DNA of 64,000 bases from a virus, in IMG/VR virus record IMGVR_UViG_3300032313_000518, positions 1 through 64,000 of that record; one strand, written 5' to 3'. A model generated the notes under the pieces. It was not told the DNA's origin, ran no database searches, and saw nothing but the letters and a program-made list of their open reading frames with translations. Every line of letters starts with the position of its first letter. Positions within the stretch are counted from its first letter, which is position 1. Of the stretch, positions 6,647-60,154 are shown in pieces. Both the position numbers and the translations under genes were made by a program.

Positions 6647-6671
6647 TTCTATAATTAAAACCCCCAATAGT

Positions 6672-13067: not shown

Positions 13068-13607
13068 TTATAAAAGTGATAAAATTGTATCTATACTTTT
13101 TTCGTTTACTTTAATCGGATAATAATCAATATCGTATTGTTTTAATATTGTTGTTATATCATCATCAATCTCTTTACTTTCTTCCAAACCCTGAAATCTA
13201 CCATCGGGCTGAAACATAGAGTCATCTCTTTCCAATACAATGTTAATAGAGTTGTACTGCTTATGTAAATCAACTACAAACTCATCGAATGTAAATCCGT
13301 AAAACGATGATGGATAATCATAATGAGTAGAGTATCGATTCTTATAAACCAAACTTAACATAATAGGTGAATCCACCACAATATAATCAACTTGCTCATA
13401 TAACCTTGCTATGTTCCTATGCTGATTAGCCAATACATACAATTGGTCTTTCACCATTTCGTAACTCTTATCCCACGCTAATAACTTTGGAAACTCATAT
13501 GGCATTTCTACATTCATATTAAGTTTCTTCATTTCATAATATAGACCGGCGGCTTGTGTGGATTTTCCAATGCCAGGTCCTCCAAATAAATTAATTATCT
13601 TTGTCAT
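13068..13607 (-). CDS. P-loop nucleotide kinase (NadR/AAA_28-like)
   Basis: NLFGGPGIGKST, E.PK.LAW, VDSP, GRFQ..EES. Confidence 0.85.
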   Translation of the reverse strand: MTKIINLFGGPGIGKSTQAAGLYYEMKKLNMNVEMPYEFPKLLAWDKSYEMVKDQLYVLANQHRNIARLYEQVDYIVVDSPIMLSLVYKNRYSTHYDYPSSFYGFTFDEFVVDLHKQYNSINIVLERDDSMFQPDGRFQGLEESKEIDDDITTILKQYDIDYYPIKVNEKSIDTILSLL

Positions 13608-17600: not shown

Positions 17601-18977
17601 GTGCAGTTAAGACCAAATCAAATAGAACCTGTTAAAAAGGGAGTGGAATTCTTTAAGCAAAAGAAAGCCGTTCCCTCAATTATTGTTGCTCCAACGGCAT
17701 TCGGTAAATCAATCGTTATCGCTCAGATAGCAAAAGAAGTTGGAGAGAAGTTATTAGTTATCCAACCATCCAAAGAGCTATTAGAGCAGAACTATAATAA
17801 GTTTATAGGGTTAGGTGGTGAGGCATCAATCTATTCGGCTGCTATGGGAGAGAAGGAGATTGGACATGTTACCTATGCAACCATTGGTTCGATTGTAAAC
17901 ATCGCATACAAGTTTAAGGATATGGGTATCACCAAAGTCATTATCGATGAGTGTGATAGATTCCCAAGAGACCCTAAGGGAATGATGAGAAGATTTTTAG
18001 ATGCTGCAAAAACAACTCACGTATTAGGATTAACCGCAACTCCATTAAAGTTACAAACTAATATGGGGGATGATGGAAGACCTTTTTCTAAATTGGTAAT
18101 GTTGACATCCCGTTCTAAAAAGGGTATATTCTTTAAGGAGGTACTTCATGTAGCTCAAATTAAAGAGATGGTTGATTTACAATTTTGGTCTCCTCTAAAA
18201 TATGAATCATATGATTTTAATACTGGGGATTTAGTTTACAATTCGACCAACGCAGAGTTCACCGATGAATCAATTCAAAAAGCTTACAAAAATCAAGATA
18301 TTGGTGGTAAAATAATGAAGAAGATTTCGGATATGCCTGATAGAAAATCTATATTAGTTGCCGTACCCTCAATTGATGATGCTAAATTATTATCAACAAA
18401 ATTACCATCATGTGAAGCAGTATATAGCGGAATGCCTGATAAGGATAGAGATAGGATTATTGATGATTTTAAAAACCTAAGATTACGAATTGTAGTTCAA
18501 GTTACTATTCTTTCGGTAGGATTTGACCATCCTCAATTAGATTGTATCATTACAGGTAGACCTACTGCATCTTTAAGTTGGTGGTATCAATTTGTGGGAA
18601 GAGTAACTCGTATCCACTCCGAAAAGCCAAATGGATTGGTTATAGATTTTGTAGGTAGTGTTCCGAAATTTGGAAAGGTTGAGGATTTATACTTTAAGAA
18701 AGAAGGTGTGATGTGGAAACTCTATGGGGAAGGTCAAAAGTTGTTGACTGGTATTCCATTGCATGAAGTTGGATTACATATAGAAGGAAAGAAATCTCCT
18801 TACGAATTAGCAGAAGAAAGTCCTGATGTGATTATGACATTTGGCAAATACAAAGATACACCAATCAGAAAAATACCTATATGGTATAGAAAGTGGATGT
18901 TGGAGAACATTACTTGGAATCAATTTAATCAAGCCATAAAAGCTGAATTACTCCGATTAAAAAATATTGGAATTTAA
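17601..18977 (+). CDS. superfamily II DNA/RNA helicase (RadD/YejH-like) with C-terminal FGKYK domain
   Basis: LRPNQ, APTAFGKS, DECD, GLTATP, LSVGFDHP.LD, QFVGRVTR; tail MTFGKYKD.PI..IP.WY.KW. Confidence 0.9.
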   Translation: MQLRPNQIEPVKKGVEFFKQKKAVPSIIVAPTAFGKSIVIAQIAKEVGEKLLVIQPSKELLEQNYNKFIGLGGEASIYSAAMGEKEIGHVTYATIGSIVNIAYKFKDMGITKVIIDECDRFPRDPKGMMRRFLDAAKTTHVLGLTATPLKLQTNMGDDGRPFSKLVMLTSRSKKGIFFKEVLHVAQIKEMVDLQFWSPLKYESYDFNTGDLVYNSTNAEFTDESIQKAYKNQDIGGKIMKKISDMPDRKSILVAVPSIDDAKLLSTKLPSCEAVYSGMPDKDRDRIIDDFKNLRLRIVVQVTILSVGFDHPQLDCIITGRPTASLSWWYQFVGRVTRIHSEKPNGLVIDFVGSVPKFGKVEDLYFKKEGVMWKLYGEGQKLLTGIPLHEVGLHIEGKKSPYELAEESPDVIMTFGKYKDTPIRKIPIWYRKWMLENITWNQFNQAIKAELLRLKNIGI

Positions 18978-22943: not shown

Positions 22944-23783
22944 ATGGGAAAGAGACAACCAAAAACTCTGGATGAAGTAAGAGAGGCAATAAACGTTTTG
23001 CCAAAAGTAGTAAAAAAGATTAAATTCAAAACAAAAAATCAAAAGAGGTTTTTTAAAGCAATTGAAAGTGATGGAAATAATATTGTAATGGCTCATGCAT
23101 TAGCAGGGGCAGGTAAGACCTACGTTGCAATACAAAAAGGATTGGAGTTACTATTCCACAAATCATCACCAATTGAAAAACTTATTATTATGAACCCAAC
23201 GGTTGATGTGGGTGGTGAGGATAAGTTGGGTTTCTTACCCGGAGATTTGATGGAGAAGATTGAAGTACACAACGAATCTGCTCTATACATTTTAGATAAG
23301 ATAATAGGATTGGCAGAAACTCGTAGATTAATTGCACAAGGAAAGATTGAGTTCAAAGTACTTAACTTTTTGAGAGGAAACAATATGGAGAAATCGTATG
23401 TTATATTGGATGAAGCACAAAACGCATCACCTCTACAACTTAAAACATTAGTAACCCGTATTACGGATGATTCAAAACTTATCATTCAGGGTGACCTTTC
23501 ACAATGTGATAAGTATAGAAATAATGGAACACCTGCTTACCAAAAGAGTGGGTTCTACGATGTGTGGAAACGATTGGCAGGATTGAAGGGAGTTTATCAA
23601 ATAGAGTTTACTAAAGATGATTGTATCCGTTCTGGTATTGTTAAAAGAATATTGGAAAGATATGAATTGGAAGAGGAAATATATTTGGGAGAAAACAACG
23701 CATACGAAATATATGTTGATTATAATCCAGCCGTAGAGATATTGGATATAGAAGAGTACCAGTTTGTTGATGAAATACAATAA
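22944..23783 (+). CDS. phoH: PhoH-like ATPase
   Basis: KTKNQ, AGAGKT, LGFLPGDL.EK, FLRG, ILDEAQN, TRI...SKLII.GD..QCD, DCIRSGIV. Confidence 0.93.
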   Translation: MGKRQPKTLDEVREAINVLPKVVKKIKFKTKNQKRFFKAIESDGNNIVMAHALAGAGKTYVAIQKGLELLFHKSSPIEKLIIMNPTVDVGGEDKLGFLPGDLMEKIEVHNESALYILDKIIGLAETRRLIAQGKIEFKVLNFLRGNNMEKSYVILDEAQNASPLQLKTLVTRITDDSKLIIQGDLSQCDKYRNNGTPAYQKSGFYDVWKRLAGLKGVYQIEFTKDDCIRSGIVKRILERYELEEEIYLGENNAYEIYVDYNPAVEILDIEEYQFVDEIQ

Positions 23784-29705: not shown

Positions 29706-30107
29706 ATGGATACGAACACAACATTAAAAATTACACTAGGTACAATACTAATAGTGGGAATTATAGCAATTACAATAGTATCAATAGGATTTAGTATGAA
29801 TAATAAAGATAAACCAATAGTTGCAATGAGTAGAGAAAACTATCAGATTCAAACTCATACAATAGATTCATTGACTAGAGTAGTTGATAGTTTAGAAATG
29901 GAAATACATTCACAAGCACAAAAGTTTGATAATAAAGAAAAAAAATACAAAGAAATCCTATTTGAATATGAATTAGGTATTGATAGAATCAAAAACTATC
30001 ATCCAAAAGCATATGAGGATTTCCATAGGATATTAGCATATAGAGAAGATTATAGTAGAGAAGCAGAAATTGAAAACAAAAAAAGATTAAATGAATACAA
30101 TAGATAA
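29706..30107 (+). CDS. membrane-anchored coiled-coil protein
   Basis: N-terminal TM helix followed by heptads. Confidence 0.7.
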   Translation: MDTNTTLKITLGTILIVGIIAITIVSIGFSMNNKDKPIVAMSRENYQIQTHTIDSLTRVVDSLEMEIHSQAQKFDNKEKKYKEILFEYELGIDRIKNYHPKAYEDFHRILAYREDYSREAEIENKKRLNEYNR

Positions 30108-31284
30108 AAAGTATCAACAATTACTTAATGATATTATTGAATTTGGTGTAGAAAAAAAAGATAGAACCGGAACAGGTACTATATCAGAGTTTGGACATCA
30201 AATACGACATAAGATGAGTGAGGGGTTTCCATTACTTACTACAAAAAAGATGCATTGGAATTCCATTGTGACAGAACTCCTATGGTTTTTAAGAGGTGAT
30301 ACTAACATCAAATTCCTATTGGATTACGATTGCCACATTTGGGATGGTGATACATATAAGAACTATGTAAGTAAAGTTGAAGAATATACATCTACATTAA
30401 ATGTTCCTAATGATATATCCGAATTTCAAGAAGTAATGGATTCAGTAGGAAACCAAATAAAGAGTAGTGTATTATCAAAAGAAGAATTCATTAAACAAAT
30501 CAAAACCAATAATGAGTTTGCAAAGAAGTGGGGAGATTTAGGACCAATCTATGGTAAGCAGTGGAGACAGTGGCAAGGTTGGATGGATATTAATGGTAAT
30601 GAAAAAGGTTCATTGTGGTATGACCAAATCCTACAATTAGTTCATTCCCTTAAAACAAATCCCGATAGTAGAAGATTAATGGTATCAGCTTGGAATGTAG
30701 CAGAGTTAGACCAAATGGTTTTACCACCTTGCCATTATGGATTTCAAGTTTATACAAGAGAATTAAGTTGGGAAGAAAGATATGTAATCTTGAAAAATAA
30801 AACAAATGAAGACCCGTTGAAGTATTCAAAATTAGATAATGGTGATTATGACCAGTATCCGAAAGAAATGACCACAAAATGGATGGATGAATTAAACATA
30901 CCAACCAGAGCAATCTCTTTAATGTGGAATCAACGTTCAGTAGATACATTTTTGGGATTACCATTTAATATAGCATCTTATGCATTACTATTAGAGATTA
31001 TTGCGAAAGAAGTAAATATGGTGCCGGAAGATTTGATTGGTAATTTGGGAGATGTGCATTTATATAAAAACCATATCGAACAAGCCAAAGAACAAATCAG
31101 TAGAGAACCATATAGTTTACCAACAATTCAAATCACCGAAAGGAATTGGTATCAGCACGAAAAAGTAAAAGAGAATTTAGGACCAAAAACATTTAGAGAT
31201 ATAATACTATCTTATAGACCTGATTGTTTTGAACTAATAGGTTACGAATCACATCCAAAAATTAAAGCACCATTATCAAATTAA
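30091..31284 (+). CDS. thyA: thymidylate synthase
   Basis: DRTGTGT, FPLLTTK, ELLWF, GPIYG.QWR, SRR, LPPCH, QRSVD.FLGLPFNIASY, GDVHLY.NH. Confidence 0.96.
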   Translation: MNTIDKKYQQLLNDIIEFGVEKKDRTGTGTISEFGHQIRHKMSEGFPLLTTKKMHWNSIVTELLWFLRGDTNIKFLLDYDCHIWDGDTYKNYVSKVEEYTSTLNVPNDISEFQEVMDSVGNQIKSSVLSKEEFIKQIKTNNEFAKKWGDLGPIYGKQWRQWQGWMDINGNEKGSLWYDQILQLVHSLKTNPDSRRLMVSAWNVAELDQMVLPPCHYGFQVYTRELSWEERYVILKNKTNEDPLKYSKLDNGDYDQYPKEMTTKWMDELNIPTRAISLMWNQRSVDTFLGLPFNIASYALLLEIIAKEVNMVPEDLIGNLGDVHLYKNHIEQAKEQISREPYSLPTIQITERNWYQHEKVKENLGPKTFRDIILSYRPDCFELIGYESHPKIKAPLSN

Positions 31285-41662: not shown

Positions 41663-42403
41663 ATGACTAAAAGAGAAGTATTATATAATGCTAGTTTAGC
41701 AGTATTAGCATATTCAAAAGAAGAGCAAATTAAGTGGAGTGATTATGGGTTAGAGTTAGTGAAGTGGATTCACAACGATAAATCAGATACACAGGGATTT
41801 GTAGCAACGCGGGATAAAGCAATCTATGTTGTGTGGAGAGGTAGTGAATCAAAGAAGGATTTTCAAAATGATGCTTCAATTGATAAAGTACCATTTATAA
41901 ACGATGGAGAGAAAGTACACATTGGATTTAAATATTGTTGGGAATCGGTAGTGGGTGATACCTATGATGCAATCGATATTGCAATAGAAAACCTACAAGG
42001 AGAAACTACGGATATTGTAGTTTGTGGACATAGTTTGGGTGGAGCAATAGCAACATTGTATGCACACTCAATTAAGAAACACTATCCACATTACAACATT
42101 AAATCCGTAACAATTGGAAGTCCAAGAGTTGGCAACAAAACATTTAAGGACAATTACGATTCATATGAGATTGATACTTTGAGAGTGGTACACAATAACG
42201 ATTTGGTAACACATACACCATACATTAGATTTTATCACGTAAACTATCAATTAAGATTAGATAGTGATGGTAATGTATTAAAGAGAGATACATCATTAAA
42301 TGCATTATGGTTATACCTTAAAGCAATATTTTCAGGTAGTAATATCAAAGACCATATGGGTGATGGGTATATGAAAGCATTACAAAATTGGGTAACAAAA
42401 TAA
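41663..42403 (+). CDS. lipase, class 3
   Basis: V.RGSE, VH.GF, GHSLGGA.A.L, TIGSPRVGN, RVVH.ND.V...P, terminal DH. Confidence 0.92.
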   Translation: MTKREVLYNASLAVLAYSKEEQIKWSDYGLELVKWIHNDKSDTQGFVATRDKAIYVVWRGSESKKDFQNDASIDKVPFINDGEKVHIGFKYCWESVVGDTYDAIDIAIENLQGETTDIVVCGHSLGGAIATLYAHSIKKHYPHYNIKSVTIGSPRVGNKTFKDNYDSYEIDTLRVVHNNDLVTHTPYIRFYHVNYQLRLDSDGNVLKRDTSLNALWLYLKAIFSGSNIKDHMGDGYMKALQNWVTK

Positions 42404-43528: not shown

Positions 43529-43612
43529 TACAAACTTAACAATTTGATAATATTAAAAGTATAATTTTATTAAGGTAGTTTCCTATATATTGGTGAAAAT
43601 TAAAACATCAAT

Positions 43613-46096
43613 ATGAGGAAACTACTTTTATTATTAACGTTACTAATTCCCATAATATCCTTTTCACAAACCTTATCGGGTAAAACAAAATCAAATAAAG
43701 AAGAACTCATTGGAGTTACAATTTGGCTAACTAACAAAAATACAAATAAAAAAATTGGAAGTACATCTGATATCGAATCCAAATATCAATTCCAAAATGT
43801 AGTAGCTGGAAACTATTCAATCAAAGCATCATTTGTTGGATATAAAGAATATACAAAAGATATTACAATTAATGGAGATACCAATTTAGATATCCTAATT
43901 GAAGAAGATACAAAAGTATTGCAAGAAGTTGTAGTAAAGCAAGTAGCAAAGAAAGAAACTGCAACCGCACTTATCAATACACTTAAAGCATCTTACATTG
44001 TAGCAGATGGTTTATCAATCGAATCAATAAAGAAAACACCAGATAGAACTGTTGGAGATGCACTTAAAAGAGTTAGTGGTGTAACAATCCAAAACGATAA
44101 GTTTGTTTTAGTTAGAGGTTTAGCTGATAGATACAACTCGGCTCTACTAAACAAATCAATCCTACCATCAACCGAACCCGATAGAAGAGCATTCTCATTT
44201 GATATTATACCAACATCACTAATAGATAATATTATCATCAACAAAGGAGCATCGGCAAACCTACCGGGTGATTTCGCAGGAGGTTTGGTACAAATTACAA
44301 CAAAGGAAGTTAGTGGTGATTTCTTAAATGTATCATTGGGAGGAAGTTGGGGTTCACTATCAACGGGACAGAATTTTAGATTGGTAGACCCAATACAATT
44401 CCCATCAACGTTCCCATCAACAAACGGATATAGGATTGCTGGATTGGGTGATAGAAGAGCATACACTAAACTAATAGGTTCGCCACAATCCGAAGAGTTT
44501 TCATCTATTCCAAACTTAAATGGTAACTTATCATTTGGTGTTGTAAAAAACAAATGGAACATCTTATTCAGTTCAACAGCAAGAAATACATATTCAGCTA
44601 ATACAACCGAAAGAATCGATTATCAATCATCAACTGAATTAGCATACAATTACAAAGACTTAAATTACTCAAATGTACAATCTCTAAATGGATTATTGAA
44701 CATAGTTTATTTAGGAGAGAATCGTTATAGTTGGAAAACACTTGCTAACTACCAAAACGAAAAATCATTTTTAAGTAGAGTTGGTGAGAACTATGATAAT
44801 GTTCAGTATGTAGATAGTAAATCATCCAACTCAATTCAAAAGTTAGTATTCAATACACAATTTGAAGGTAAGATTAAAACATTGGATTTTAATGTAGGAT
44901 ATAATCTTATGTTGAGAGACCAACCTGATTATAGAGTAACACCTTACATATCATCTTTATATACATCAACACCTTATTCAATAGCATGGAGAGATACCTA
45001 TCGTTTTTGGAGTGTAATGGATGAAAACTCATTCAATGGGGGATTAAACAAATCCATAGGAGATATTCGTTTAGGAGTGGGTTACTTGAAGAAATTGAGA
45101 AACTTCAAAGCAAGAATATTCAGATACGAATCAATGGATTTATTAAATGAGATTACAAACAACACCGATAGATATACTGCCGATTTTGATTTGGCAAATG
45201 GATATGTGATGTATGAAAAAGAAATCAATGACCTAAAAGTAAATACAGGTTTTAGAACAGAATACAATTTATTCAAAGTTCAAACATCTGATTTTAGTGG
45301 ACAACGGATTTCAGTAGATAGAGAGTATTTGGATTTACTCCCATCATTAAACGCAACATATTCAACATCAGAAAAAACAAAGGTTAGATTATCGGTAAGT
45401 AAAACATTAGCAAGACCAGAGTTTAGAGAGGTAGCTAATTTTGCGTATTATGACTTTGTTAGAAACGCACAACTATTAGGAAATCCAAACTTACAAAAAA
45501 CGGATATATTCAATTCAGATATAAAGTTCGAGTTGTATCCTAAATCAGGTGAGAATATATCAATCGGTTTTTTTGGTAAGAAGTTCTTCAATCCAATTGA
45601 GCAAGTTGTAGCAGATGGTTCAGTTCCATCAAATCTATTATTAACATATAAAAATCCAAATGAAGCATTGGTATATGGAGTTGAAATTGAACTTCGTAAA
45701 AAATTAAATGATTGGTTAGATTTATATTCAAACACATCATTCATCAATTCGGAAGTTGATATAAATGGAATTAAAAGACAATTGCAAGGACAATCAAACT
45801 ATGTAGTAAATGGTGGATTGAACTTACATAAAAACAACAATACGTTCAACATATCATACAATAGAGTTGGAGATAGAATATCAGCAGTAGGATTTCAAGG
45901 ATACCCCGATATATTTGAAAACTCTCGTGATGTAGTTGATATTGTTATTCTTCGTAAAATTAAAAACGGAGAAATTAAATTAGCAGTATCGGATATATTC
46001 AGACAACCATTTGAGTATTACCAAAAACCAAATAGAACTTTAATTAAAACAAACAACGAAACAACAGTTTCACTAACACTAAATTACAACCTATGA
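43613..46096 (+). CDS. TonB-dependent receptor
   Basis: Signal peptide, CarboxypepD-reg domain, plug DALKRVSGVTI...VRGLADRYN...PSTEPDRR..FD.IP..LID, PGDFAGG, ARPEFRE, GNP.L; C-terminal YNL. Confidence 0.92.
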   Translation: MRKLLLLLTLLIPIISFSQTLSGKTKSNKEELIGVTIWLTNKNTNKKIGSTSDIESKYQFQNVVAGNYSIKASFVGYKEYTKDITINGDTNLDILIEEDTKVLQEVVVKQVAKKETATALINTLKASYIVADGLSIESIKKTPDRTVGDALKRVSGVTIQNDKFVLVRGLADRYNSALLNKSILPSTEPDRRAFSFDIIPTSLIDNIIINKGASANLPGDFAGGLVQITTKEVSGDFLNVSLGGSWGSLSTGQNFRLVDPIQFPSTFPSTNGYRIAGLGDRRAYTKLIGSPQSEEFSSIPNLNGNLSFGVVKNKWNILFSSTARNTYSANTTERIDYQSSTELAYNYKDLNYSNVQSLNGLLNIVYLGENRYSWKTLANYQNEKSFLSRVGENYDNVQYVDSKSSNSIQKLVFNTQFEGKIKTLDFNVGYNLMLRDQPDYRVTPYISSLYTSTPYSIAWRDTYRFWSVMDENSFNGGLNKSIGDIRLGVGYLKKLRNFKARIFRYESMDLLNEITNNTDRYTADFDLANGYVMYEKEINDLKVNTGFRTEYNLFKVQTSDFSGQRISVDREYLDLLPSLNATYSTSEKTKVRLSVSKTLARPEFREVANFAYYDFVRNAQLLGNPNLQKTDIFNSDIKFELYPKSGENISIGFFGKKFFNPIEQVVADGSVPSNLLLTYKNPNEALVYGVEIELRKKLNDWLDLYSNTSFINSEVDINGIKRQLQGQSNYVVNGGLNLHKNNNTFNISYNRVGDRISAVGFQGYPDIFENSRDVVDIVILRKIKNGEIKLAVSDIFRQPFEYYQKPNRTLIKTNNETTVSLTLNYNL

Positions 46097-47295
46097 AAAA
46101 ATTATTAGTATTGTTCGCAAGTTTAACAATCTTTGGATGTTCTAAAGATTTGGGTGGAGAAGTTACACCAATCAATGTACCAACCTCAACAACTTTGAGT
46201 GGTAACATCACATCAACTACAACTCTTACATCGGATAAAGAGTGGGTATTAAAAGGATATGTTTATGTAACCGATGGTGCTAAACTTATCATTCAACCTG
46301 GCACAACAATCAAATCTGATATAAGTGAGAAAGGTGCATTGTGTATTGAAAGAGGAGCACAAATTGTAGCAGAAGGTACTGTAGCAAAACCAATCATATT
46401 CACATCTGGTAGACCTGCTGGAGAAAGAACACCTGGTGATTGGGGTGGTATTGTAATATTGGGTAGAGCAAAAACCAATAGAACGGCAGAACCAACTATC
46501 GAAGGTGGTATCGGAAGACCTTATGGTGGAACAAACGATTTAGATAATAGTGGTGTTCTAAAATATGTAAGAATTGAATACGCTGGAATTGCAGCAATGC
46601 CAAACTCTGAAATCAACGCACTAACATTGGGTGGAGTTGGTAGTGGAACAATTATTGAGAATGTTCAAACTATCTACGCTAACGATGATGCATTTGAATT
46701 CTTTGGTGGAACTGTAAATGCTAAAAACTTATATGCATATGGAACTGCGGATGATGATTATGATTTTGATTTTGGATATAGAGGAAAAGTATCTTTTTCA
46801 GTATCAAAGAGAGACCCACAATTCGTAGATAATGGTGATGCGGGAAATGGTGTAGAGTGTGATAATGATGGAACAGGTTCAACAGCAGAACCATTTACAC
46901 ATCCTATTTTAGATAATATGATTTTAGTTGGGCCTAACGATGCAACATCTTTAGCAAACCACAATTTAGCAATGAGATGGAGAAGAGCAACTCAATTTGA
47001 GGTTTACAATTCTACAATCATTGGATATATGAAAGGTGGTTTCTCAATGGAAAGTAATGAAACTGCACAATTCTACAAAGATGGTGTAAGTAAGTTTCAG
47101 AACAATAAAATTGGTTCATACAACTTATTAAACTTTATCAGTAAGGCAACTACTATTATTACATCGGATGTAGTTAAAACAAAAGCATTAAGTGAAGGTA
47201 ATACTGAAATAACTTTAACTCCAACCGAAATAGAAACCTTATCTAAACCAATTTGGACAGCAGGTTGGACTAAATTCCCAACGAAAGGAAACTAA
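46093..47295 (+). CDS. beta-helix surface lipoprotein partnering the TBDR
   Basis: IFGC lipobox; L.IQPGT.I, A.GT...PIIFTS, GDWGGIVILG.A, DNSGVLKYVRIEYAG, EINALTLGGVG.GT, DD.FEFFGGTVN. Confidence 0.85.
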   Translation: MKKLLVLFASLTIFGCSKDLGGEVTPINVPTSTTLSGNITSTTTLTSDKEWVLKGYVYVTDGAKLIIQPGTTIKSDISEKGALCIERGAQIVAEGTVAKPIIFTSGRPAGERTPGDWGGIVILGRAKTNRTAEPTIEGGIGRPYGGTNDLDNSGVLKYVRIEYAGIAAMPNSEINALTLGGVGSGTIIENVQTIYANDDAFEFFGGTVNAKNLYAYGTADDDYDFDFGYRGKVSFSVSKRDPQFVDNGDAGNGVECDNDGTGSTAEPFTHPILDNMILVGPNDATSLANHNLAMRWRRATQFEVYNSTIIGYMKGGFSMESNETAQFYKDGVSKFQNNKIGSYNLLNFISKATTIITSDVVKTKALSEGNTEITLTPTEIETLSKPIWTAGWTKFPTKGN

Positions 47296-47296
47296 A

Positions 47297-48010
47297 ATGA
47301 AAGATAAATTAACTATCATCATCCCATCAAAAAACGAAAGCGATACTTTATATGATTGCTTACAATTTTTGTATAATCAAACGGATATAGATGGTTTTAG
47401 AGTTATAGTAGCAGATATATCAGATGACCCATATTCGGTTGGTATTTTATATAAAGCAAGAAGTAATTTCAAAGATAAATTAAAAATTGAAGTAATAAAA
47501 GGTGGGTATCCATCGGAAGGTAGATTGGCAGGTTCTAAACTTGCCAATACTCCTTACATTCTGTTTTTAGATGCAGATGTATTTCTTACAAACCATAGTT
47601 TGTTAAGTGATATATTCAAAAAGTTGGAAACAACAAAGATAGAACTATTAACTACACCATTTCAAACTTCTAAAAAATGGAATTGGGTGTTTCGTATTTT
47701 TGATATATTCCAATGGTTGAGTGTAAAGATAAACTCACCATTTGCAGTAGGTGGATTTCAGTTATGGGATAGACAAGCATATTGGAAAGTAGGGGGATAT
47801 AAAAAAGATGAATTGTTTGCGGAAGATTATTCACTTTCATCAAAATCAAATCCAAAGTATTTTCATATACATAAAACAAACGGAGTTTGGACATCACCTC
47901 GTAGATTTCAAAACAAAGGAGTATTCTATATGGTTTCTTTAATGATGCAAAGTTACATCAACAGAAATAATCCTGAATTTTTCAAACAACATCACAATTA
48001 TTGGGTTTAA
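47297..48010 (+). CDS. glycosyltransferase family 2
   Basis: IIIPSKNE, VIVAD, LFLDADV, GGY..ELFAEDY, TSPRRF. Confidence 0.9.
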   Translation: MKDKLTIIIPSKNESDTLYDCLQFLYNQTDIDGFRVIVADISDDPYSVGILYKARSNFKDKLKIEVIKGGYPSEGRLAGSKLANTPYILFLDADVFLTNHSLLSDIFKKLETTKIELLTTPFQTSKKWNWVFRIFDIFQWLSVKINSPFAVGGFQLWDRQAYWKVGGYKKDELFAEDYSLSSKSNPKYFHIHKTNGVWTSPRRFQNKGVFYMVSLMMQSYINRNNPEFFKQHHNYWV

Positions 48011-48107
48011 TTATGGGCACTATATTTCCTTTTCTTTTTGGATTTGCAGTTGTTATAGCAGGTTGTATTGTTATGATGATTGTAGACCAAATTTCTAAAA
48101 AAAGATA

Positions 48108-48818
48108 ATGTACAAATATATCATAGTATCAGATTTACATTTAGGTACTAAACATAGTAAAGCAAAGGAGTTCTTACAATTCATAGAAGAGAACCCATGC
48201 GAACAACTTATTCTCAATGGGGATATAGTTGATGGATGGGCATTGCAAAGAGGAACTAAATGGAGAACATCTCACACAAAGGTAATTGCTAAACTAATAA
48301 AACTATCCACAAAGCAAAAGGTAGTTTGGATACGGGGAAATCACGATGATTTTCTTAAAGATTTTATTGGTACTAATTTGGGTAATATAAAAATCAGAGA
48401 AGATTATATTATTACCGCAGATAAAAGATACTTCATATTTCACGGAGATATTATAGATGTATTTATTACAAAATACAAATGGTTATCACAAATAGGAGCG
48501 GTTGGATACGATTTTGCTTTATTACTAAATGACGTGTATAATTGGTATCGTAAGTGGAGAAATCTACCTTATTATTCAATATCACAAAGAATAAAAGAGG
48601 GTGTTAAAATAGCAACCAATTATGTTAATGATTTTGAAACAACCGCAATCCGAATGGCAGGTGATAAGATGTGTGATGGTGTTATTTGTGGACACATTCA
48701 CCAACCCGCTGACAGAATGATTGGTAAAAAACACTATCTCAATTCAGGAGATTGGGTTGAGAATATGACAGCAATCTGTATAAATGATAACAATAATATA
48801 ACAATTAAAAGAATATAA
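48108..48818 (+). CDS. PlcP-like phospholipase C (UDP-2,3-diacylglucosamine hydrolase-like metallophosphoesterase)
   Basis: SDLHLGT, LNGDIVDGW.L, GNHDD, HGDIID, R....YYSIS..IK..VK.A..Y..DFE, DGVICGHIH, N.GDWVE..TA. Confidence 0.75.
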   Translation: MYKYIIVSDLHLGTKHSKAKEFLQFIEENPCEQLILNGDIVDGWALQRGTKWRTSHTKVIAKLIKLSTKQKVVWIRGNHDDFLKDFIGTNLGNIKIREDYIITADKRYFIFHGDIIDVFITKYKWLSQIGAVGYDFALLLNDVYNWYRKWRNLPYYSISQRIKEGVKIATNYVNDFETTAIRMAGDKMCDGVICGHIHQPADRMIGKKHYLNSGDWVENMTAICINDNNNITIKRI

Positions 48819-48852
48819 TTGTGATATTTATATATACAAACTAAACAAATAA

Positions 48853-49893
48853 ATGTCATCCTCAAAAACTCTGTTTATATTAAAAAGAAAACAAAACTAT
48901 AATCTTTCAACCGATTATAGTGTTGGATTAAGCACCGGCCTGTACAATTCGGCTCAATTTATGAATCAAATGCTATTAGATGGCGGGTTTGATTCTCAAA
49001 TGGTAGTTGTAAATGATAATAACGATATAGATAGAGAAGTAACTCTACACAAACCAACCCACGTTATTATTGAAGCTCTTTGGGTTGTTCCATCTAAATT
49101 CGAAGTTCTTTGCAAATTACATCCAAACGTTAAATGGGTAATTCGTTTACATAGCGAAATACCATTTTTAGCAAATGAAGGAATGGCAATGGATTGGATT
49201 GGGGAATATAGTAAATTTGATAATATTATTATTTCTTGCAACTCACCACAAACTACCAAAGATATTGAGTTTTATATGAGTACAAAATTGGGTATTAAAA
49301 AGAATATAGCTTTTTTACCAAATTTTTATCCACAACAATATAAAACTAAATCATTCAATAAGAAAGGTGATACGATTCACATAGGATGTTTTGGTGCAAT
49401 TAGACCTCTAAAAAATCATCTTATACAAGCATTTGCAGCAATTAAGTTTGCAGATGAAATTGGTAAAAAATTACATTTCCATATCAATTGCGATAGAGTT
49501 GAACAAAAAGGAGAACCAATATTAAATAACTTAATAAGTATGTTCAATCATTTAGAACATAAAGGTCATAAGTTAGTTCATCATGAGTGGAGTGTTAGAG
49601 AGCAATTTATTCAATTATGTTCTACGATGGATATTGGAATTCAGATATCATTTAATGAAACTTTTAATATTGTAGGAGCTGATATAGTTTCACAAGGAGT
49701 TCCTTTGGTATCTTCACCTGAAATCCCTTGGGCTAATTCATTATTTACTGCAAGACAAACTAATACTGATGATATTGTAGATTCACTATTATGTACTTAC
49801 GCATATCCAAAAATAAATGTATTATTAAATCAAAGAGGTCTTGAAAAATATACAAATAAAACAAAACATATTTGGTTTAAGTTTTTCAAATGA
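48853..49893 (+). CDS. GT-B (GT4-like) glycosyltransferase
   Basis: IGCFGAIRPLKNH, SFNETFNIV.AD..S.GVP.V. Confidence 0.7.
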   Translation: MSSSKTLFILKRKQNYNLSTDYSVGLSTGLYNSAQFMNQMLLDGGFDSQMVVVNDNNDIDREVTLHKPTHVIIEALWVVPSKFEVLCKLHPNVKWVIRLHSEIPFLANEGMAMDWIGEYSKFDNIIISCNSPQTTKDIEFYMSTKLGIKKNIAFLPNFYPQQYKTKSFNKKGDTIHIGCFGAIRPLKNHLIQAFAAIKFADEIGKKLHFHINCDRVEQKGEPILNNLISMFNHLEHKGHKLVHHEWSVREQFIQLCSTMDIGIQISFNETFNIVGADIVSQGVPLVSSPEIPWANSLFTARQTNTDDIVDSLLCTYAYPKINVLLNQRGLEKYTNKTKHIWFKFFK

Positions 49894-49935: not shown

Positions 49936-51546
49936 TTGAAAAAGTTAAAAGTTTTATTAAGTGTATTATTCATATTCTGTCTAGCTTCCAAAGCTAACGG
50001 ACAAACAACATTTACACAAACATTTATAGATAAGTGTACTGGAGAAGTAAAACTCGCCACCACTACCTATGTCAATGGAAATGCCTTTGTATCATTCTAT
50101 GACCAAATGAAAGTATTCTCACCCGAAGAAGTTCAAAGTGGTGCAATGAAAATTTGGTTACAAGCAGTTTACCTTGCTTATGCAAATAAGACTTGTGCAA
50201 CTGCAACGGTAGTTCAACAAACCATTCAACAAACGGTAAACCAAGCAGTTCAACAAGCAGCATCTCAAGCGGCTCAACAGGCAGCAGCTCAAGCCGCATC
50301 ACAAGCAGCAGCTCAAGCGGCTTCACAAGCAGCAGCTTCAGCCGCACAATCGGCAGCAGCTTCGGCAGCTCAATCAGCGGCAAGTTCAGCTGCATCATCT
50401 GCTGCTTCTTCTGCGGCAAGTTCAGCGGCAAGTTCAGCTGCATCATCTGCCGCTTCTTCTGCGGCTAGTGGAGCGGCTTCATCGGCAGCTGGTTCTGCGG
50501 CTAGTGGAGCAGCAGCTTCGGCAGCCGGAGCGGCAGTACCACCACCCCCACCAACTCCATCCGCACCTGCTCCTAGCGCTCCGGCTCCTTCTGGTGGAGG
50601 TTCACCTACCCCATCATCAAATAGTTCTTCTGGTGGAGGAAACGGAGGTGGTAGTTCATCACCAAAAGCAGAAGCAAAAGCTGAGGCAAAAGCTGAGGCA
50701 AAAGCCGAAGCTAAAGCTGAATCAAAATCGGAAAGTAAGAGTGAATCTAAATCAGAATCCAAATCCGAATCCAAAGAAGAAAGTAAATCCGAAAGTAAAA
50801 GTGAGGAAAAGAAAGAAGAATCAAAATCGGAATCTAAAAAAGAAGAAAAGAAAGAAGAGAAAAAGGAAGAGAAGAAACAAAAAGCAGCACCAATAAATCC
50901 ATTATTATTGGCATCGGATTTAAGTGTAGTAGAATCCGAACCTGGTAGTTGGCAGGCAATCCTATCAACTGGTGTATCTCGTTCATCAATGGCTGGAGAT
51001 GAAAGTTATTCAGCTAGTTCAATGATTTGGAGTAATCTAAAACAATTTGCCCTAAGTGGTGGTTATACTAAGATGAACTTCAAAGATGGAGCATTACATT
51101 CTATGAACTCATACTCACTAACTGGTGCATATTTGGATAGAACCTATATGAGTTTAGTTGGATTGACAGTAATAATACCACACCCAAAGATTGGAGTATA
51201 TGGATACAATGTTGGTTTAGTTAATCTATTCTCACCAAAAGAAGGTGGGGGATATGGATATAGTGTAAGTAATTCTGGTGTTCTATTTTGGACTAAACCA
51301 TATCAAACTACAAAGAAATTAACACTATCACCGCAAGTGTTTACAATGTTACCTGGTGGAAGTTGGGATACAACCAATGGTACATTCACTTATAGTTCCG
51401 ATGTTGGATTATTATTGGGTACTTCGATTGATTACAAAATCAGTAAACGTTTTGGATTTAGTTTTAATTACAAAATCAATACGTCTACTGCTGCAGGGGC
51501 TCCGATATTAAGTAACTTTTTAATTGGTTCTAGATTGATGCTTTAA
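49936..51546 (+). CDS. exported protein: N-terminal domain, long low-complexity linker, C-terminal beta-barrel
   Basis: Signal peptide (KANG/Q); AASQ, ASSA, Pro/Ser, AEAK, ESKS and EEKK tracts; C-terminal strands ending IGSRLML. Confidence 0.8.
   Translation: MKKLKVLLSVLFIFCLASKANGQTTFTQTFIDKCTGEVKLATTTYVNGNAFVSFYDQMKVFSPEEVQSGAMKIWLQAVYLAYANKTCATATVVQQTIQQTVNQAVQQAASQAAQQAAAQAASQAAAQAASQAAASAAQSAAASAAQSAASSAASSAASSAASSAASSAASSAASSAASGAASSAAGSAASGAAASAAGAAVPPPPPTPSAPAPSAPAPSGGGSPTPSSNSSSGGGNGGGSSSPKAEAKAEAKAEAKAEAKAESKSESKSESKSESKSESKEESKSESKSEEKKEESKSESKKEEKKEEKKEEKKQKAAPINPLLLASDLSVVESEPGSWQAILSTGVSRSSMAGDESYSASSMIWSNLKQFALSGGYTKMNFKDGALHSMNSYSLTGAYLDRTYMSLVGLTVIIPHPKIGVYGYNVGLVNLFSPKEGGGYGYSVSNSGVLFWTKPYQTTKKLTLSPQVFTMLPGGSWDTTNGTFTYSSDVGLLLGTSIDYKISKRFGFSFNYKINTSTAAGAPILSNFLIGSRLML
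50220..50880 (+). repeat. coding tetrapeptide repeats (QAAS, ASSA, AEAK, SESK, EEKK)
   Basis: 12-nt periodicity with synonymous codon variation. Confidence 0.85.
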
Positions 51547-58120: not shown

Positions 58121-60154
58121 ATGGCAATAACTACAACAAATAAAAACTTTAAAAATAAAGGAAAAGATATAAAATATCTTGGTAAAGATTTTACTAGCTT
58201 TAGAAGTAATTTAATAGAATTCGCTAAAACATATTTTCCTAAATCATATTCTGATTTTAATGAAACTTCACCAGGTATGATGTTTATTGAAATGGCGTCA
58301 TATGTTGGTGATGTTCTTTCATATTATGTAGATGATACTTTTAAAGAATCATTAATGCCATATGCAGAAGATATTCAAAGTGTAATTGCATTATCTCAAT
58401 TTTTAGGGTATAAACCAAAAGTAACGGCTCCTGCAATTACTGATATAGCTGTCTATCAATTAGTTCCATCGATTGGTACCGGTACATCAAATATACCCGA
58501 TTCAAAATATTATTTAAGAATAAAAGAAGGAATGGTTGTGGAATCAACCAATACTATTCAATTCAGAACAACTAGTTTATTGGATTTTTCAGATTCAAAT
58601 AATAGACAAATAACTGTTTACCAAAGAGATTCAAATACAGGAGAACCAACTTTTTATTTGGTAAAAAAATACGTTCAGGTTATATCTGCAATACAAAAAC
58701 AAGAAACTTTTACATTTGGTACATATCAACCATTTCAAACTATTGATTTGATTGATACGAATGTAATACAAATATATGATGTAAGAGATTCTAATAATAA
58801 CAAATATTATGAAGTTCCGTATTTAGGACAGGAGATGATATTTGTTGATGAACCAAATAATGAAATAAACGATCCTGATTTGGTTCAATTTAAAGACACA
58901 GTACCTTATGTATTAAAAACTATAAAAACGCCAAAACGATTTGTAGCTAAAGTAAATCAAGATAGTACAACTACATTACAATTTGGAGCAGGTGACCCAT
59001 CTGCTAGTGATGAACAATTAATTCCAAATCTTAAAAACGTTGGATTGGGATTACCAAACTCTATTAGTAGATTAGAAGAATCATTTGACCCAACAAATTT
59101 CTTAAAAACAAAAACTTATGGTACATCTCCATCAAATACTAATATAATTGTTAAGTATTATGTAGGTGGTGGGGTTGAATCTAATGTAGCACAGCGTACT
59201 ATAACAAAAATAGCATCTGTTGAATATGATGAAAATTCTTCAACATTTACAAATCAACAATTACCCGTTTATAATTCAATAAAAAAATCATTATCAGTTG
59301 ATAATGAAATGCCTGCGGTTGGTGGTCGTGGTGGTGAAACCATAGAAGAAATTAGACAAAATGCATTAGCAAACTTTGGCGCACAAAATAGAGCAGTAAC
59401 TGCACGAGATTATCAAGTAAGAGCATTATCTTTACCATCTAAATATGGTGGTATAGCTAAAGTATATGCAACTGCAGATGGTACATTAGATAATAATTCA
59501 CCCGCATCTATATTATCATCACCAAATCATTTACAAGAGTTTACTGATTTAGTAATGAGTTTTGTAAATAAACCTGACATACAAGAACCAACATCAGCTG
59601 TAGTTAAGCAAGAACTTACTAAATATTTAGTTGGTAAAGAATCTAATTTAAAAGAAAAAAATAATCCATTTGCAATTAATCTTTATTTGTTGGGTTATAA
59701 TTTAAACAATCAATTAACAAATTTAAATAGAGCAGTAAAGGAAAATCTTAAAACATACTTAAATGAATACAGAATAATGACCGATGCTATTAATATAAGT
59801 GACGGATTTGTTATTAATATAGGAATTGATTTTGAGATAATTACTTATAAAAATTATAATAAGAGTGAAGTTTTAACAAATGTAATTACTGAATTAAAAA
59901 ATTATTTCAATATTGATAATTGGACATTTAATCAAACTATAAATTTAAGTGAGGTTGAGTTAATGATTGCAAATATAGAGGGAGTATCATCAGTACCAAT
60001 GTTAAAAATAACAAATAAATGTGGTGGTAACTATTCAAGTAATTCATATAATATAGATGCGGCAACTAAAAGTAAGGTAGTATATCCATCGTTAGACCCA
60101 TCGGTTTTTGAAGTTAAGTTTCCGGATTCAGACATTAAAGGAAGAGCAAAATAA
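58121..60154 (+). CDS. baseplate wedge protein (T4 gp6 / baseplate J-like)
   Basis: KDF...R..L...AK.YFP..Y.DF...SPG...IE..SYVGDVLS.Y.D; FG.G; GG...E..EEIR..A......Q.RAVT..DY. Confidence 0.9.
   Translation: MAITTTNKNFKNKGKDIKYLGKDFTSFRSNLIEFAKTYFPKSYSDFNETSPGMMFIEMASYVGDVLSYYVDDTFKESLMPYAEDIQSVIALSQFLGYKPKVTAPAITDIAVYQLVPSIGTGTSNIPDSKYYLRIKEGMVVESTNTIQFRTTSLLDFSDSNNRQITVYQRDSNTGEPTFYLVKKYVQVISAIQKQETFTFGTYQPFQTIDLIDTNVIQIYDVRDSNNNKYYEVPYLGQEMIFVDEPNNEINDPDLVQFKDTVPYVLKTIKTPKRFVAKVNQDSTTTLQFGAGDPSASDEQLIPNLKNVGLGLPNSISRLEESFDPTNFLKTKTYGTSPSNTNIIVKYYVGGGVESNVAQRTITKIASVEYDENSSTFTNQQLPVYNSIKKSLSVDNEMPAVGGRGGETIEEIRQNALANFGAQNRAVTARDYQVRALSLPSKYGGIAKVYATADGTLDNNSPASILSSPNHLQEFTDLVMSFVNKPDIQEPTSAVVKQELTKYLVGKESNLKEKNNPFAINLYLLGYNLNNQLTNLNRAVKENLKTYLNEYRIMTDAINISDGFVINIGIDFEIITYKNYNKSEVLTNVITELKNYFNIDNWTFNQTINLSEVELMIANIEGVSSVPMLKITNKCGGNYSSNSYNIDAATKSKVVYPSLDPSVFEVKFPDSDIKGRAK

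What the first reader, a model, noticed from the sequence alone, without database searches (positions are those of the whole stretch)
43530..49893. Phage-borne phosphate-starvation module: TBDR, lipoprotein, glycosyltransferases and PlcP-like phospholipase
Seen: one run of TBDR, beta-helix lipoprotein, GT2 and metallophosphoesterase, followed by a GT4-like gene. Upstream is a weak -7 (TATATTGG 43586) with no -33 element but an 11-nt-spaced TTAACA/ATAATA repeat at 43536-43552. Known: the GDIxDGW, YxSxS..K..VK.A and NxGDWVE..TA motifs typify PlcP, which under P limitation strips phospholipid head groups so that glycosyltransferases can make P-free glycolipids from DAG. From memory, similar TBDR plus lipoprotein pairs are Pho-regulated in Flavobacterium and Caulobacter (unverified). 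Inference: the phage mines host membrane phosphorus for DNA synthesis while patching the membrane with glycolipid, possibly under host PhoB control. I know of no description of this as a phage auxiliary pathway.
Basis: partly seen in the sequence, partly recalled or inferred. Interest (0 to 1): 0.85.

Follow-up and report, generated by a model that had tools for sequence, protein, structure and literature searches.

The report
Phage-borne PlcP lipid-remodelling gene cassette
A large phage of Bacteroidota carries a true PlcP-type phospholipase C (not the lipid A enzyme LpxH it is usually labelled as), paired with a phage-specific glycosyltransferase and placed beside a host-derived outer-membrane transporter pair. 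This suggests the virus strips phosphorus from host membrane lipids and replaces them with glycolipid, but no activity has been measured.

Summary
The gene run is real and phage-borne. The window is an IMG/VR virus record with baseplate, helicase, thymidylate synthase and PhoH genes.

**PlcP.** Gene 48108-48818 falls in the PlcP clade, not with LpxH.
- It is 39% identical to P. aeruginosa PA3219 (E 2.5e-56) and 37% identical to the S. meliloti SMc00171-type protein.
- It is 25% identical to E. coli LpxH.

**GT2.** The GT2 just upstream accompanies this PlcP in 75 of 80 viral contigs. It has no close relative in 301 Bacteroidota genomes. GT2, a 31-aa membrane ORF and PlcP together behave as a movable cassette, cleanly missing from 95-99% identical phages.

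**TBDR and lipoprotein.** This pair is a host cassette found in 197 of 301 Bacteroidota genomes. It matches in domain make-up the Pi-starvation-induced Fjoh_0545/0546 pair of F. johnsoniae.

**GT-B.** The downstream gene has a GT4-like fold but is not consistently linked to PlcP.

**Regulation.** PhoB control and the promoter motifs are unsupported.

No searched paper calls a phage gene PlcP; virome surveys list it as lpxH. All functions are inferred. I rate this a new variant of a known kind, interest about 0.68.

The parts
41663..42403 (+). Class-3 lipase (alpha/beta hydrolase, GHSLGG nucleophile elbow, no signal peptide). It is probably an accessory lipid enzyme of the module.
   Evidence: PF01764, 2.7e-30; sequence. 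In relatives L242, L086 and L087 it lies directly upstream of GT2-PlcP-GT-B. dN/dS is 0.14-0.25.
43613..46096 (+). TonB-dependent-receptor-type outer-membrane transporter, 827 aa. It is a compact version of a roughly 930-950 aa Bacteroidota protein.
   Evidence: Pfam CarbopepD_reg_2, Plug and OMP_b-brl_3. TIGR01782 scores 171 bits, below its cut-off. It is 25-39% identical to bacterial TBDRs that always precede a homologue of the lipoprotein. Its deletions are short and scattered. dN/dS is 0.11.
46093..47295 (+). Surface or outer-membrane lipoprotein with a right-handed beta-helix fold, partner of the TBDR.
   Evidence: Lipobox. Model pLDDT 85. All PDB hits are beta-helix pectate lyases or tailspikes, with weak E values near 0.01. 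Homologues occur in 197 of 301 Bacteroidota genomes at up to 62% identity, and sit beside a TBDR in 10 of 10 loci. dN/dS is 0.10.
47297..48010 (+). Phage-specific soluble GT2 glycosyltransferase (DxD motif FLDAD). It is the conserved partner of PlcP and the candidate DAG glycosyltransferase.
   Evidence: PF00535, 6.7e-16; PF13506 (GT21) at 23.9 bits against a 21.7 cut-off. It lies at position -1 or -2 of PlcP in 75 of 80 viral loci. The best hit in 301 Bacteroidota genomes is 36 bits. It has more than 1,100 metagenomic relatives. dN/dS is 0.20-0.25.
48013..48108 (+). 31-aa single-pass membrane peptide ORF. Its stop codon overlaps the PlcP start (TAATG).
   Evidence: Read from the sequence. The peptide is 100% identical in L083, L084, L085 and L118 despite nucleotide changes, and 74-81% identical in L086, L087, L242 and L241.
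48108..48818 (+). PlcP-clade metallophosphoesterase (predicted intracellular phospholipase C). It is not LpxH.
   Evidence: Tree and BLAST. Motifs and all seven metal-binding residues. The LpxH equivalog scores 50 bits against a 134 cut-off. Bacteroidota genomes hold a separate LpxH paralogue. dN/dS is 0.06-0.07.
48853..49893 (+). GT-B fold glycosyltransferase, GT4-like (E-x7-D variant of the EX7E motif). Its acceptor is unknown and it is only loosely linked to PlcP.
   Evidence: Atlas look-alikes are viral GT1/GT4 clusters. Model pLDDT 89. Closest to BshA and MshA at E about 5e-10 and TM 0.7; T4 alpha-glucosyltransferase is also among the hits. Of the 35 further viral loci retrieved with it, only about 7 have PlcP nearby.

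Best explanation
This is a mosaic auxiliary-gene island in a large (probably about 190 kb) phage of Bacteroidota.

Its core is a mobile three-ORF cassette at 47297-48818: GT2, a 31-aa membrane peptide and PlcP.

Proposed mechanism:
1. PlcP is a Mn-type metallophosphoesterase of the lipid-renovation phospholipase C family. It cleaves the phosphorylated head group from host glycerophospholipids and leaves diacylglycerol. This step is inferred from clade membership.
2. The GT2, which travels with PlcP in nearly all phages that have it, glycosylates that diacylglycerol into a phosphorus-free glycolipid. The inner membrane therefore stays intact while its phosphorus is diverted, after host phosphatases act, to phage nucleotide synthesis. 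This step is inferred from gene linkage and from the bacterial plcP-glycosyltransferase operon logic.
3. The cytoplasmic class-3 lipase and the GT4-like GT-B are accessory lipid or glycan enzymes of uncertain role.
4. The TBDR plus beta-helix lipoprotein is a separately acquired host cassette. In F. johnsoniae a pair of the same domain make-up is Pi-starvation induced. In the phage it would add outer-membrane uptake capacity for a phosphorus-containing substrate during infection. This step is inferred.

Shown here: gene identities, clade membership, linkage, mobility and purifying selection.

Not shown: any enzyme activity, substrate, timing of expression or phosphate control.
For: **Phage context.**
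- The window is an IMG/VR record of 110,968 b, 58% complete.
- It carries baseplate, helicase and thymidylate synthase genes and PhoH.

**PlcP identity.**
- A branch with 100% SH-aLRT support splits E. coli LpxH plus Bacteroidota paralogue A from a second group. That group holds P. aeruginosa PA3219 (beside agt1 and cyaB), the S. meliloti SMc00171-type protein (beside sinR and sinI), pelagiphage Mosig, Bacteroidota paralogue B and the phage clade.
- BLASTP E values are 2.5e-56 and 5.8e-52 to the two PlcPs, against 7.5e-5 to LpxH.
- Clade-specific motifs and the metal ligands are conserved.

**Context of bacterial paralogue B.**
- A GT-B glycosyltransferase lies directly downstream in 43 of 80 loci.
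- Other neighbours are PhoD, PI-PLC, ppk and a TBDR.

**GT2-PlcP linkage and mobility.**
- The pair occurs in 75 of 80 viral loci, with PlcP identity ranging from 47% to 100%.
- The cassette is a clean indel between 95-99% identical phages.

**Selection.** dN/dS is 0.06-0.25 for all genes.

**TBDR-lipoprotein.**
- It is a conserved Bacteroidota pair.
- It lies beside plcP-GT in L228, L007 and L002.
- It lies divergent to a PhoB/PhoR-like pair in L272 and L276.
- A pair of the same Pfam make-up, and PlcP itself, are Pi-starvation induced in F. johnsoniae (PMC8115612).

**Independent recurrence.** A second, distant phage group has Lipo-TBDR-GT2-PlcP-YceI.
Against: - No biochemical, lipidomic or expression data exist for any phage copy.
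- The GT2 is a phage-specific family with no characterised member. It lacks the membrane segments of the known GT2/GT21 diacylglycerol glycosyltransferases (MgdA, Pgt), so its acceptor is a guess.
- The GT4-like gene is mostly found without PlcP and resembles many soluble-acceptor GT4 enzymes and a DNA glucosyltransferase.
- TBDR-lipoprotein adjacency to plcP or phoBR in bacteria is infrequent: 2 of 80, 2 of 30 and 2 of 20 loci.
- Orthology to Fjoh_0545/0546 was not tested directly.
- The PhoB/PhoR-like neighbours score below the NCBIfam cut-offs.
- No phosphatase that would release Pi from the head group is evident in the island.
- The surrounding 20 kb is full of exported envelope proteins, which fits a surface-remodelling role equally well.
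Confidence: 0.58

Rival explanations
1. Envelope or surface remodelling for superinfection exclusion or receptor masking. The GT2, the GT-B and the LpxH-like enzyme alter LPS, lipid A or surface glycans. The extra TBDR and lipoprotein change the outer-membrane protein landscape so that related phages cannot adsorb.
For: - Phage glycosyltransferases commonly do this.
- There is a weak PHROG hit to GtrB-like O-antigen conversion (7e-4).
- The island sits in a roughly 20 kb stretch of exported and OM proteins, including a second TBDR at 13647-16907.
- Virome papers file the homologues under LPS biosynthesis.
Against: - The enzyme is in the PlcP clade, far from LpxH, and each Bacteroidota genome checked already has a separate LpxH paralogue.
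- The GT2 has no membrane segments and there is no GtrA-type flippase.
- The bacterial relatives of PlcP sit in phosphate-stress neighbourhoods, not LPS loci.
Confidence: 0.2
2. Membrane demolition for lysis or egress. The cytoplasmic lipase and the phospholipase C degrade inner-membrane lipid late in infection to help release, and the glycosyltransferases do unrelated work.
For: - Lipase_3 and PlcP are both lipid hydrolases without signal peptides.
- In another phage group a lysozyme lies 3-6 genes away.
- Lipid-degrading lysis accessories are known in mycobacteriophages (my own knowledge).
Against: - The near-obligate pairing of PlcP with a glycosyltransferase across very divergent phages argues that the product is used, not discarded.
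- PlcP is the most constrained gene of the set (dN/dS 0.06), and it is found in many different genomic contexts away from lysis genes.
Confidence: 0.1
3. Host DNA carried by mis-assembly, or a prophage flank, rather than phage genes.
For: The TBDR and lipoprotein have close chromosomal relatives, up to 62% identical.
Against: - The same genes lie between phage genes on many independent IMG/VR contigs, some 130-270 kb long.
- Phage PlcPs form their own clade.
- The GT2 has no close relative in the 301 Bacteroidota genomes sampled.
- G+C content is uniform across the island.
Confidence: 0.03

Closest known systems
Bacterial PlcP-glycosyltransferase lipid renovation pathway (S. meliloti SMc00171; Phaeobacter MED193_17359 with SAR11 Agt; P. 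aeruginosa PA3219 with Agt1/Agt2; F. johnsoniae Fjoh_4577)
   Same: - It has the same enzyme clade, with 37-39% identity to the two characterised PlcPs I could fetch, the same motifs and the same metal ligands.
- It has the same two-gene logic of a phospholipase C next to a glycosyltransferase (PMC4796936; P. aeruginosa locus).
   Different: - It is encoded by a phage.
- The partner is a small soluble phage-specific GT2 placed upstream, not a GT4 Agt or the GT28-like GT-B placed downstream in Bacteroidota.
- A 31-aa membrane peptide is intercalated between the two genes.
- No Pho box or phosphate control has been shown.
LpxH (UDP-2,3-diacylglucosamine diphosphatase), the label these phage genes carry in IMG, GenBank and KEGG-based AMG surveys
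   Same: It has the same calcineurin-like fold with a helical cap insertion. It gives a weak full-length match to the LpxH model (50 bits).
   Different: - It scores below the equivalog cut-off of 134 bits.
- It is 25% identical to E. coli LpxH.
- It is separated from LpxH by the longest branch in the tree.
- The genomes checked have a distinct true LpxH paralogue.
Pi-starvation-induced TBDT plus beta-helix lipoprotein pairs of Flavobacterium johnsoniae (Fjoh_0545/0546 'FII', Fjoh_3857/3856 'FI'; related to Caulobacter ElpS)
   Same: - The TBDR has the same Pfam set (PF07715, PF13715, PF14905).
- The partner is a lipoprotein with a pectin-lyase-like beta-helix.
- The gene order is TBDR then lipoprotein.
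- In two Flavobacteriaceae genomes the homologous pair abuts a PhoB/PhoR-like system.
   Different: - It is phage-encoded and shortened (827 and 400 aa, against about 940 and 440-500 aa).
- Direct orthology to the F. johnsoniae genes was not tested.
- Substrate and induction are unknown.
Known phage phosphorus and lipid auxiliary genes (pstS, phoA, phoH; cyanophage lipid desaturases); pelagiphage Mosig gp120
   Same: It follows the same strategy of carrying host P-stress or membrane genes. Mosig has a PlcP-clade gene divergent to pstS, and this phage also has phoH.
   Different: It encodes a two-enzyme lipid head-group replacement pathway plus an outer-membrane transporter pair. No searched paper describes such a phage pathway.

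Membership tests
PlcP (lipid-renovation phospholipase C, LpxH-like metallophosphoesterase) | Significant full-length similarity to experimentally characterised PlcP (Sebastian et al. used BLASTP E < 1e-40) | tested here: met
   39% identity and E 2.5e-56 to P. aeruginosa PA3219; 37% and 5.8e-52 to the S. meliloti SMc00171-type protein; tblastn E 2e-45 and 4e-42 against PLSDB.
PlcP (lipid-renovation phospholipase C, LpxH-like metallophosphoesterase) | Groups with PlcP and apart from LpxH in a phylogeny that contains both | tested here: met
   A 100% SH-aLRT branch of length 3.4 separates the two groups, and the window protein lies in the PlcP half. This was a quick LG+G4 search without bootstrap.
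PlcP (lipid-renovation phospholipase C, LpxH-like metallophosphoesterase) | Metallophosphoesterase metal ligands and PlcP-clade motifs (GDIxDxW, YxSxS..K..VK.A, NxGDWVE..TA) | tested here: met
   The alignment shows D9, H11, D39, N78, H112, H196 and H198 present. The motifs are shared with PA3219 and the S. meliloti PlcP and are absent from E. coli LpxH and Bacteroidota paralogue A.
PlcP (lipid-renovation phospholipase C, LpxH-like metallophosphoesterase) | Neighbouring glycolipid glycosyltransferase | tested here: inconclusive
   A glycosyltransferase is adjacent in 75 of 80 phage loci. It is a GT2 unrelated to agt or to the Bacteroidota GT-B partner, and its acceptor is unknown.
PlcP (lipid-renovation phospholipase C, LpxH-like metallophosphoesterase) | Phospholipase C activity on PE, PG or PC, and induction by phosphate starvation | not testable with these tools
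   This needs an enzyme assay, lipidomics and transcriptomics.
LpxH (lipid A pathway) | Reaches the NCBIfam equivalog cut-off and clusters with E. coli LpxH | tested here: not met
   NF003743 scores 50.1 bits against a 134 cut-off. Identity to E. coli LpxH is 25% over half the protein. phmmer finds no PDB LpxH at E <= 0.01.
TonB-dependent transporter | N-terminal plug plus C-terminal beta-barrel with a signal peptide | tested here: met
   Plug 3.1e-8, OMP_b-brl_3 1.7e-23 and CarbopepD_reg_2 9e-14. The signal peptide is visible. The TonB box was not examined, and TIGR01782 is below its cut-off.
Pho-regulon TBDT plus beta-helix lipoprotein pair (F. johnsoniae Fjoh_0545/0546 type) | Same domain architecture and gene order | tested here: met
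   Pfam set as published. Beta-helix model. The TBDR-then-lipoprotein order is conserved in 10 of 10 bacterial loci.
Pho-regulon TBDT plus beta-helix lipoprotein pair (F. johnsoniae Fjoh_0545/0546 type) | Orthology to the induced F. johnsoniae genes, or linkage to phoBR | tested here: inconclusive
   The F. johnsoniae sequences could not be fetched. A PhoB/PhoR-like pair is adjacent in 2 of 20 Flavobacteriaceae loci, where PhoB/PhoR are among the top NCBIfam matches but all below cut-off. An OprP-like porin is adjacent in L229.
GT4 / Agt-type diacylglycerol glycosyltransferase (for 48853-49893) | GT-B fold of the GT4 type | tested here: met
   Foldseek top hits are BshA and MshA, E about 5e-10 and TM 0.7. 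There is no Pfam hit by sequence.
GT4 / Agt-type diacylglycerol glycosyltransferase (for 48853-49893) | Conserved linkage to plcP, or homology to plcP-adjacent bacterial glycosyltransferases | tested here: not met
   There is no BLAST match to the GT-B genes downstream of bacterial PlcP. Most of the viral loci retrieved with this gene lack PlcP within 6 kb.
GT2/GT21 diacylglycerol glycosyltransferases (MgdA, Pgt) (for 47297-48010) | GT2 catalytic domain with DxD; membrane-embedded C-terminal part | tested here: inconclusive
   The GT2 domain and the FLDAD motif are present, and GT21 is just over its cut-off. The protein is only 237 aa with no hydrophobic segments. The nearest named look-alike clusters include GT21-type and carotenoid glycosyltransferases, which is a lead only.

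The most novel reading that the evidence does not exclude
A phage-specific GT2-PlcP cassette is widespread: about 80 IMG/VR contigs were recovered here, and there are more than 1,100 GT2 relatives in metagenomes. It would let phages of Bacteroidota carry out lipid renovation themselves. The phage would convert host phospholipid into a phosphorus supply for virion DNA while rebuilding the membrane from glycolipid, and in some lineages would add a Pi-stress outer-membrane transporter pair. The many viral genes now catalogued as 'lpxH / LPS biosynthesis' would then be a previously unrecognised phosphorus-cycling function.
Probability: 0.45. Interest if true: 0.8.

Novelty: new variant of a known kind. 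Interest (0 to 1): 0.68.

Why it matters
Phosphorus often limits phage production, because virions are rich in DNA.

- **Known phage answers.** These act on uptake and regulation (pstS, phoA, phoH).
- **What this would add.** A phage-encoded phospholipase C with a glycosyltransferase would be a different route, mining the host's own membrane. It would link viral infection to the glycolipid signatures used as markers of P stress in natural waters.
- **Annotation.** It would correct a systematic error, since the viral 'lpxH' is really plcP.
- **An open question made testable.** How virocells handle membrane lipids under low phosphate is explicitly described as little known in PMC12282109. A 1.5 kb cassette that is naturally present or absent in near-identical phages gives that question a direct handle.

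Tried and rejected
- A DNA search of the INPHARED phage collection with the whole region found only a trivial 160-bp match.
- phmmer of the PlcP against PDB gave nothing.
- I tried to reach an alphaproteobacterial PlcP through a MAG labelled Thalassobius. The MAG turned out to carry the two-paralogue Bacteroidota pattern and is probably mis-binned. The anchors came instead from chromosome-sized or chromosome-derived records in PLSDB.
- The JBC 2026 Burkholderia PlcP paper holds no motif or LpxH discussion, and the Mosig genome announcement does not mention the gene.
- I considered LpxH plus an LpxB-like GT-B as a lipid A module. I rejected this on the tree and because the GT-B resembles GT4, not GT19.
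- I considered the beta-helix lipoprotein as a tailspike or depolymerase. I rejected this because it has a lipobox and 50-60% identical chromosomal relatives that always follow a TBDR.
- The genes around the bacterial TBDR-lipoprotein pairs are mostly housekeeping (RNase Y, Mpo1-like, dGTPase, dxs), so synteny gives little functional signal.
- The second TBDR (13647-16907) shares only N-terminal-domain similarity with TBDRs near bacterial plcP.
- I could not test Pho boxes, because no Bacteroidota PhoB site model was at hand.

Full report
**What the window is.** It is the first 64 kb of an IMG/VR virus record of 110,968 b that CheckV rates 58% complete, which implies a genome near 190 kb. Phage hallmarks lie on both sides of the finding.
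- A helicase lies at 17601-18977, a thymidylate synthase at 30091-31284 and a baseplate wedge protein at 58121-60154.
- PhoH lies at 22944-23783.
- G+C is uniformly low, 28-39%, across the island.
- The Bacteroidota-type N-terminal carboxypeptidase-regulatory domain on the TBDRs and the taxonomy of all bacterial relatives point to a Bacteroidota host.

**The observation.**
- Pfam confirms the TBDR (CarbopepD_reg_2, Plug, OMP_b-brl_3), the GT2 and the metallophosphoesterase.
- The two genes without Pfam hits were resolved by structure prediction.
- The lipoprotein model (pLDDT 85) matches only right-handed beta-helix proteins, at weak E values.
- The last gene (pLDDT 89) is a GT-B fold nearest the GT4 enzymes BshA and MshA. 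A protein-language-model look-up agrees.
Its peptide is identical in four relatives despite nucleotide changes.
- The upstream hexamers exist at the stated positions. They are not a repeat, and promoter-like sites are not enriched over shuffled sequence. I give them no weight.

NCBIfam's LpxH equivalog matches full length but at 50 bits against a cut-off of 134.
- Every Bacteroidota genome I checked (8 of 8) has two LpxH-like paralogues.
- Paralogue A scores higher on the LpxH model and is about 24% identical to the window protein.
- Paralogue B is 37-48% identical to the window protein.
- Two experimentally characterised PlcPs could be fetched from PLSDB records that are really chromosomal.
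- One is P. aeruginosa PA3219, recognisable by its neighbours: a family-1 glycosyltransferase (agt1) and cyaB.
- The other is the S. meliloti SMc00171-type gene next to sinR and sinI.
- The window protein is 39% and 37% identical to them (E 2.5e-56 and 5.8e-52), against 25% and 7.5e-5 for E. coli LpxH.
- In a maximum-likelihood tree one long branch (3.4 changes per site, SH-aLRT 100) separates E. coli LpxH plus paralogue A from the rest.
- The rest comprises both PlcPs, pelagiphage Mosig gp120, paralogue B and all phage copies.
- I therefore file 48108 as a PlcP-clade enzyme. Activity is not shown.

**Context of the bacterial relatives.** In 43 of 80 Bacteroidota loci paralogue B is followed directly by a GT-B glycosyltransferase (Glyco_trans_1_3 / GT28-C).
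- Other recurrent neighbours are a PhoD-like phosphatase, a Ca-dependent PI-PLC, polyphosphate kinase and TBDRs.
- This is the plcP-glycosyltransferase arrangement described by Sebastian et al. (PMC4796936).
- It fits Lidbury et al., who found Fjoh_4577 'PlcP' and a pf04101 glycosyltransferase strongly induced by Pi depletion (PMC8115612).

**The phage cassette.** Relatives of the window PlcP were found on 80 IMG/VR contigs at 47-100% identity, several of them 130-270 kb long.
- The best bacterial genome hit is 48%, and phage copies form their own clade, with support of 82-94.
- In 75 of the 80 loci a homologue of the GT2 sits one or two genes upstream. No other neighbour is conserved.
- The GT2 has more than 1,100 metagenomic relatives. 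It has nothing better than 36 bits in 301 sampled Bacteroidota genomes.
- The pair is therefore phage-specific, not a copied host operon.
- Phages that are 95-99% identical in the flanking genes (L238-L240) lack exactly the segment from GT2 to PlcP. In them the lipoprotein is joined to the GT-B by 72 nt.
- Others (L242, L086, L087) have lipase-GT2-PlcP-GT-B without the TBDR pair.
- A distant phage group has lipoprotein-TBDR-GT2-PlcP-YceI.
- All genes are under purifying selection. PlcP is the most constrained, with dN/dS 0.06-0.07.

**The TBDR and lipoprotein.** Homologues of the lipoprotein occur in 197 of 301 sampled Bacteroidota genomes (up to 62% identity) and in 72 of 81 Flavobacteriaceae genomes.
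- In 10 of 10 fetched loci the lipoprotein directly follows a homologue of the TBDR. This is a host two-gene cassette, acquired more recently than PlcP.
- The phage TBDR is intact but compact, with short scattered deletions.
- The published Pi-induced Fjoh_0545/0546 pair has the same Pfam set and a pectin-lyase-fold lipoprotein.
- The cassette abuts plcP-GT in L228, L007 and L002, and a paralogous lipoprotein lies near plcP in L283.
- It abuts an OprP-like porin in L229.
- It abuts a two-component pair in L272 and L276 for which PhoB and PhoR are among the top NCBIfam matches, all below cut-off.
- These linkages are recurrent but infrequent, and direct orthology to the F. johnsoniae genes could not be tested. 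The Pho connection is plausible, not shown.

**The GT-B.**
- Of the 35 further viral loci retrieved with this gene, only about 7 have PlcP nearby.
- It has no detectable similarity to the GT-B partners of bacterial PlcP.
- T4 DNA alpha-glucosyltransferase is also among its structural neighbours.
- Its place in the pathway is therefore open.

**Mechanism and rivals.**
- Best explanation (about 0.58): PlcP removes head groups from host phospholipid, the GT2 caps the diacylglycerol with sugar, and the freed phosphate esters feed nucleotide synthesis. The TBDR pair adds P-scavenging capacity at the outer membrane.
- Main rival (about 0.2): surface or LPS remodelling for exclusion. The envelope-rich neighbourhood and the usual role of phage glycosyltransferases favour it. 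The clade membership and the soluble GT2 argue against it.
- Lysis-aid role: about 0.1.
- Assembly artefact: about 0.03.

**Novelty.** Full-text searches found no paper that links PlcP to phage genes or AMGs.
- Virome surveys list 'lpxH' under LPS biosynthesis.
- The cultured pelagiphage Mosig carries a PlcP-clade gene divergent to pstS, annotated as a UDP-2,3-diacylglucosamine hydrolase. Its genome announcement contains none of the five terms I searched for: phosphate, lipid, hydrolase, auxiliary and PhoH.
- The library covers open-access papers only.
- I rate this a new variant of a known kind: the bacterial lipid-renovation pathway in a phage-specific form. Interest is 0.68. All function is inferred, but the cassette is widespread, mis-annotated and easy to test.

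Noticed in passing
window 13647-16907 (-), with 13068-13607 (-): A second, larger TBDR-type OMP of 1086 aa (OMP_b-brl_4, CarboxypepD_reg and Plug) lies on the opposite strand, followed by an AAA_28 protein. Two TonB-dependent transporters in one phage is unusual.
   Followed up: partly
window 22944-23783: There is a PhoH-family gene (178 bits). No PstS-type binding protein was found anywhere in the 111 kb record.
   Followed up: yes
window 48013-48108: A conserved 31-aa single-pass membrane peptide lies between GT2 and PlcP. In L241 a 74% identical copy sits just upstream of the GT-B without PlcP.
   Followed up: partly
L239:4729-7038 against window 46093-49893: Near-identical phages differ by a clean 1.5 kb presence or absence of the GT2, peptide and PlcP cassette. 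This is a natural knock-out for ecological or experimental comparison.
   Followed up: yes
L181:4894-6729 (Pelagibacter phage Mosig, MT647606): A cultured SAR11 myophage has a PlcP-clade gene (47% identical to PA3219) divergently adjacent to a pstS-like phosphate-binding gene, with no glycosyltransferase nearby.
   Followed up: partly
L134:5043-11351 and relatives L127-L138: A distant phage group carries lipoprotein-TBDR-GT2-PlcP followed by a YceI-like lipid or isoprenoid-binding protein.
   Followed up: partly
window 49936-51546 (homologue L242:7071-8681): This is an exported protein. In the L242 homologue it has a long Ala/Ser/Lys/Glu low-complexity linker and a C-terminal region that looks like an OM beta-barrel. 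There is a weak PHROG hit to tail-associated lysin.
   Followed up: no
window 2702-2814: Rfam scores a tRNA here (34.5 bits, 113 nt), but ARAGORN finds none. It is an oversized tRNA-like element.
   Followed up: no
window 6624-7334 and 7752-8924: A second, unrelated metallophosphoesterase lies next to a T4-type RNA ligase, possibly an RNA-repair pair.
   Followed up: no
L179 (CP090106.1) and L013 (CAKZMZ010000380.1): There are two database oddities. A PLSDB record named pSymB is 3.7 Mb and carries chromosomal sinI, sinR and plcP. A MAG labelled Thalassobius carries Bacteroidota-type PlcP and LpxH paralogues and is probably mis-binned.
   Followed up: no
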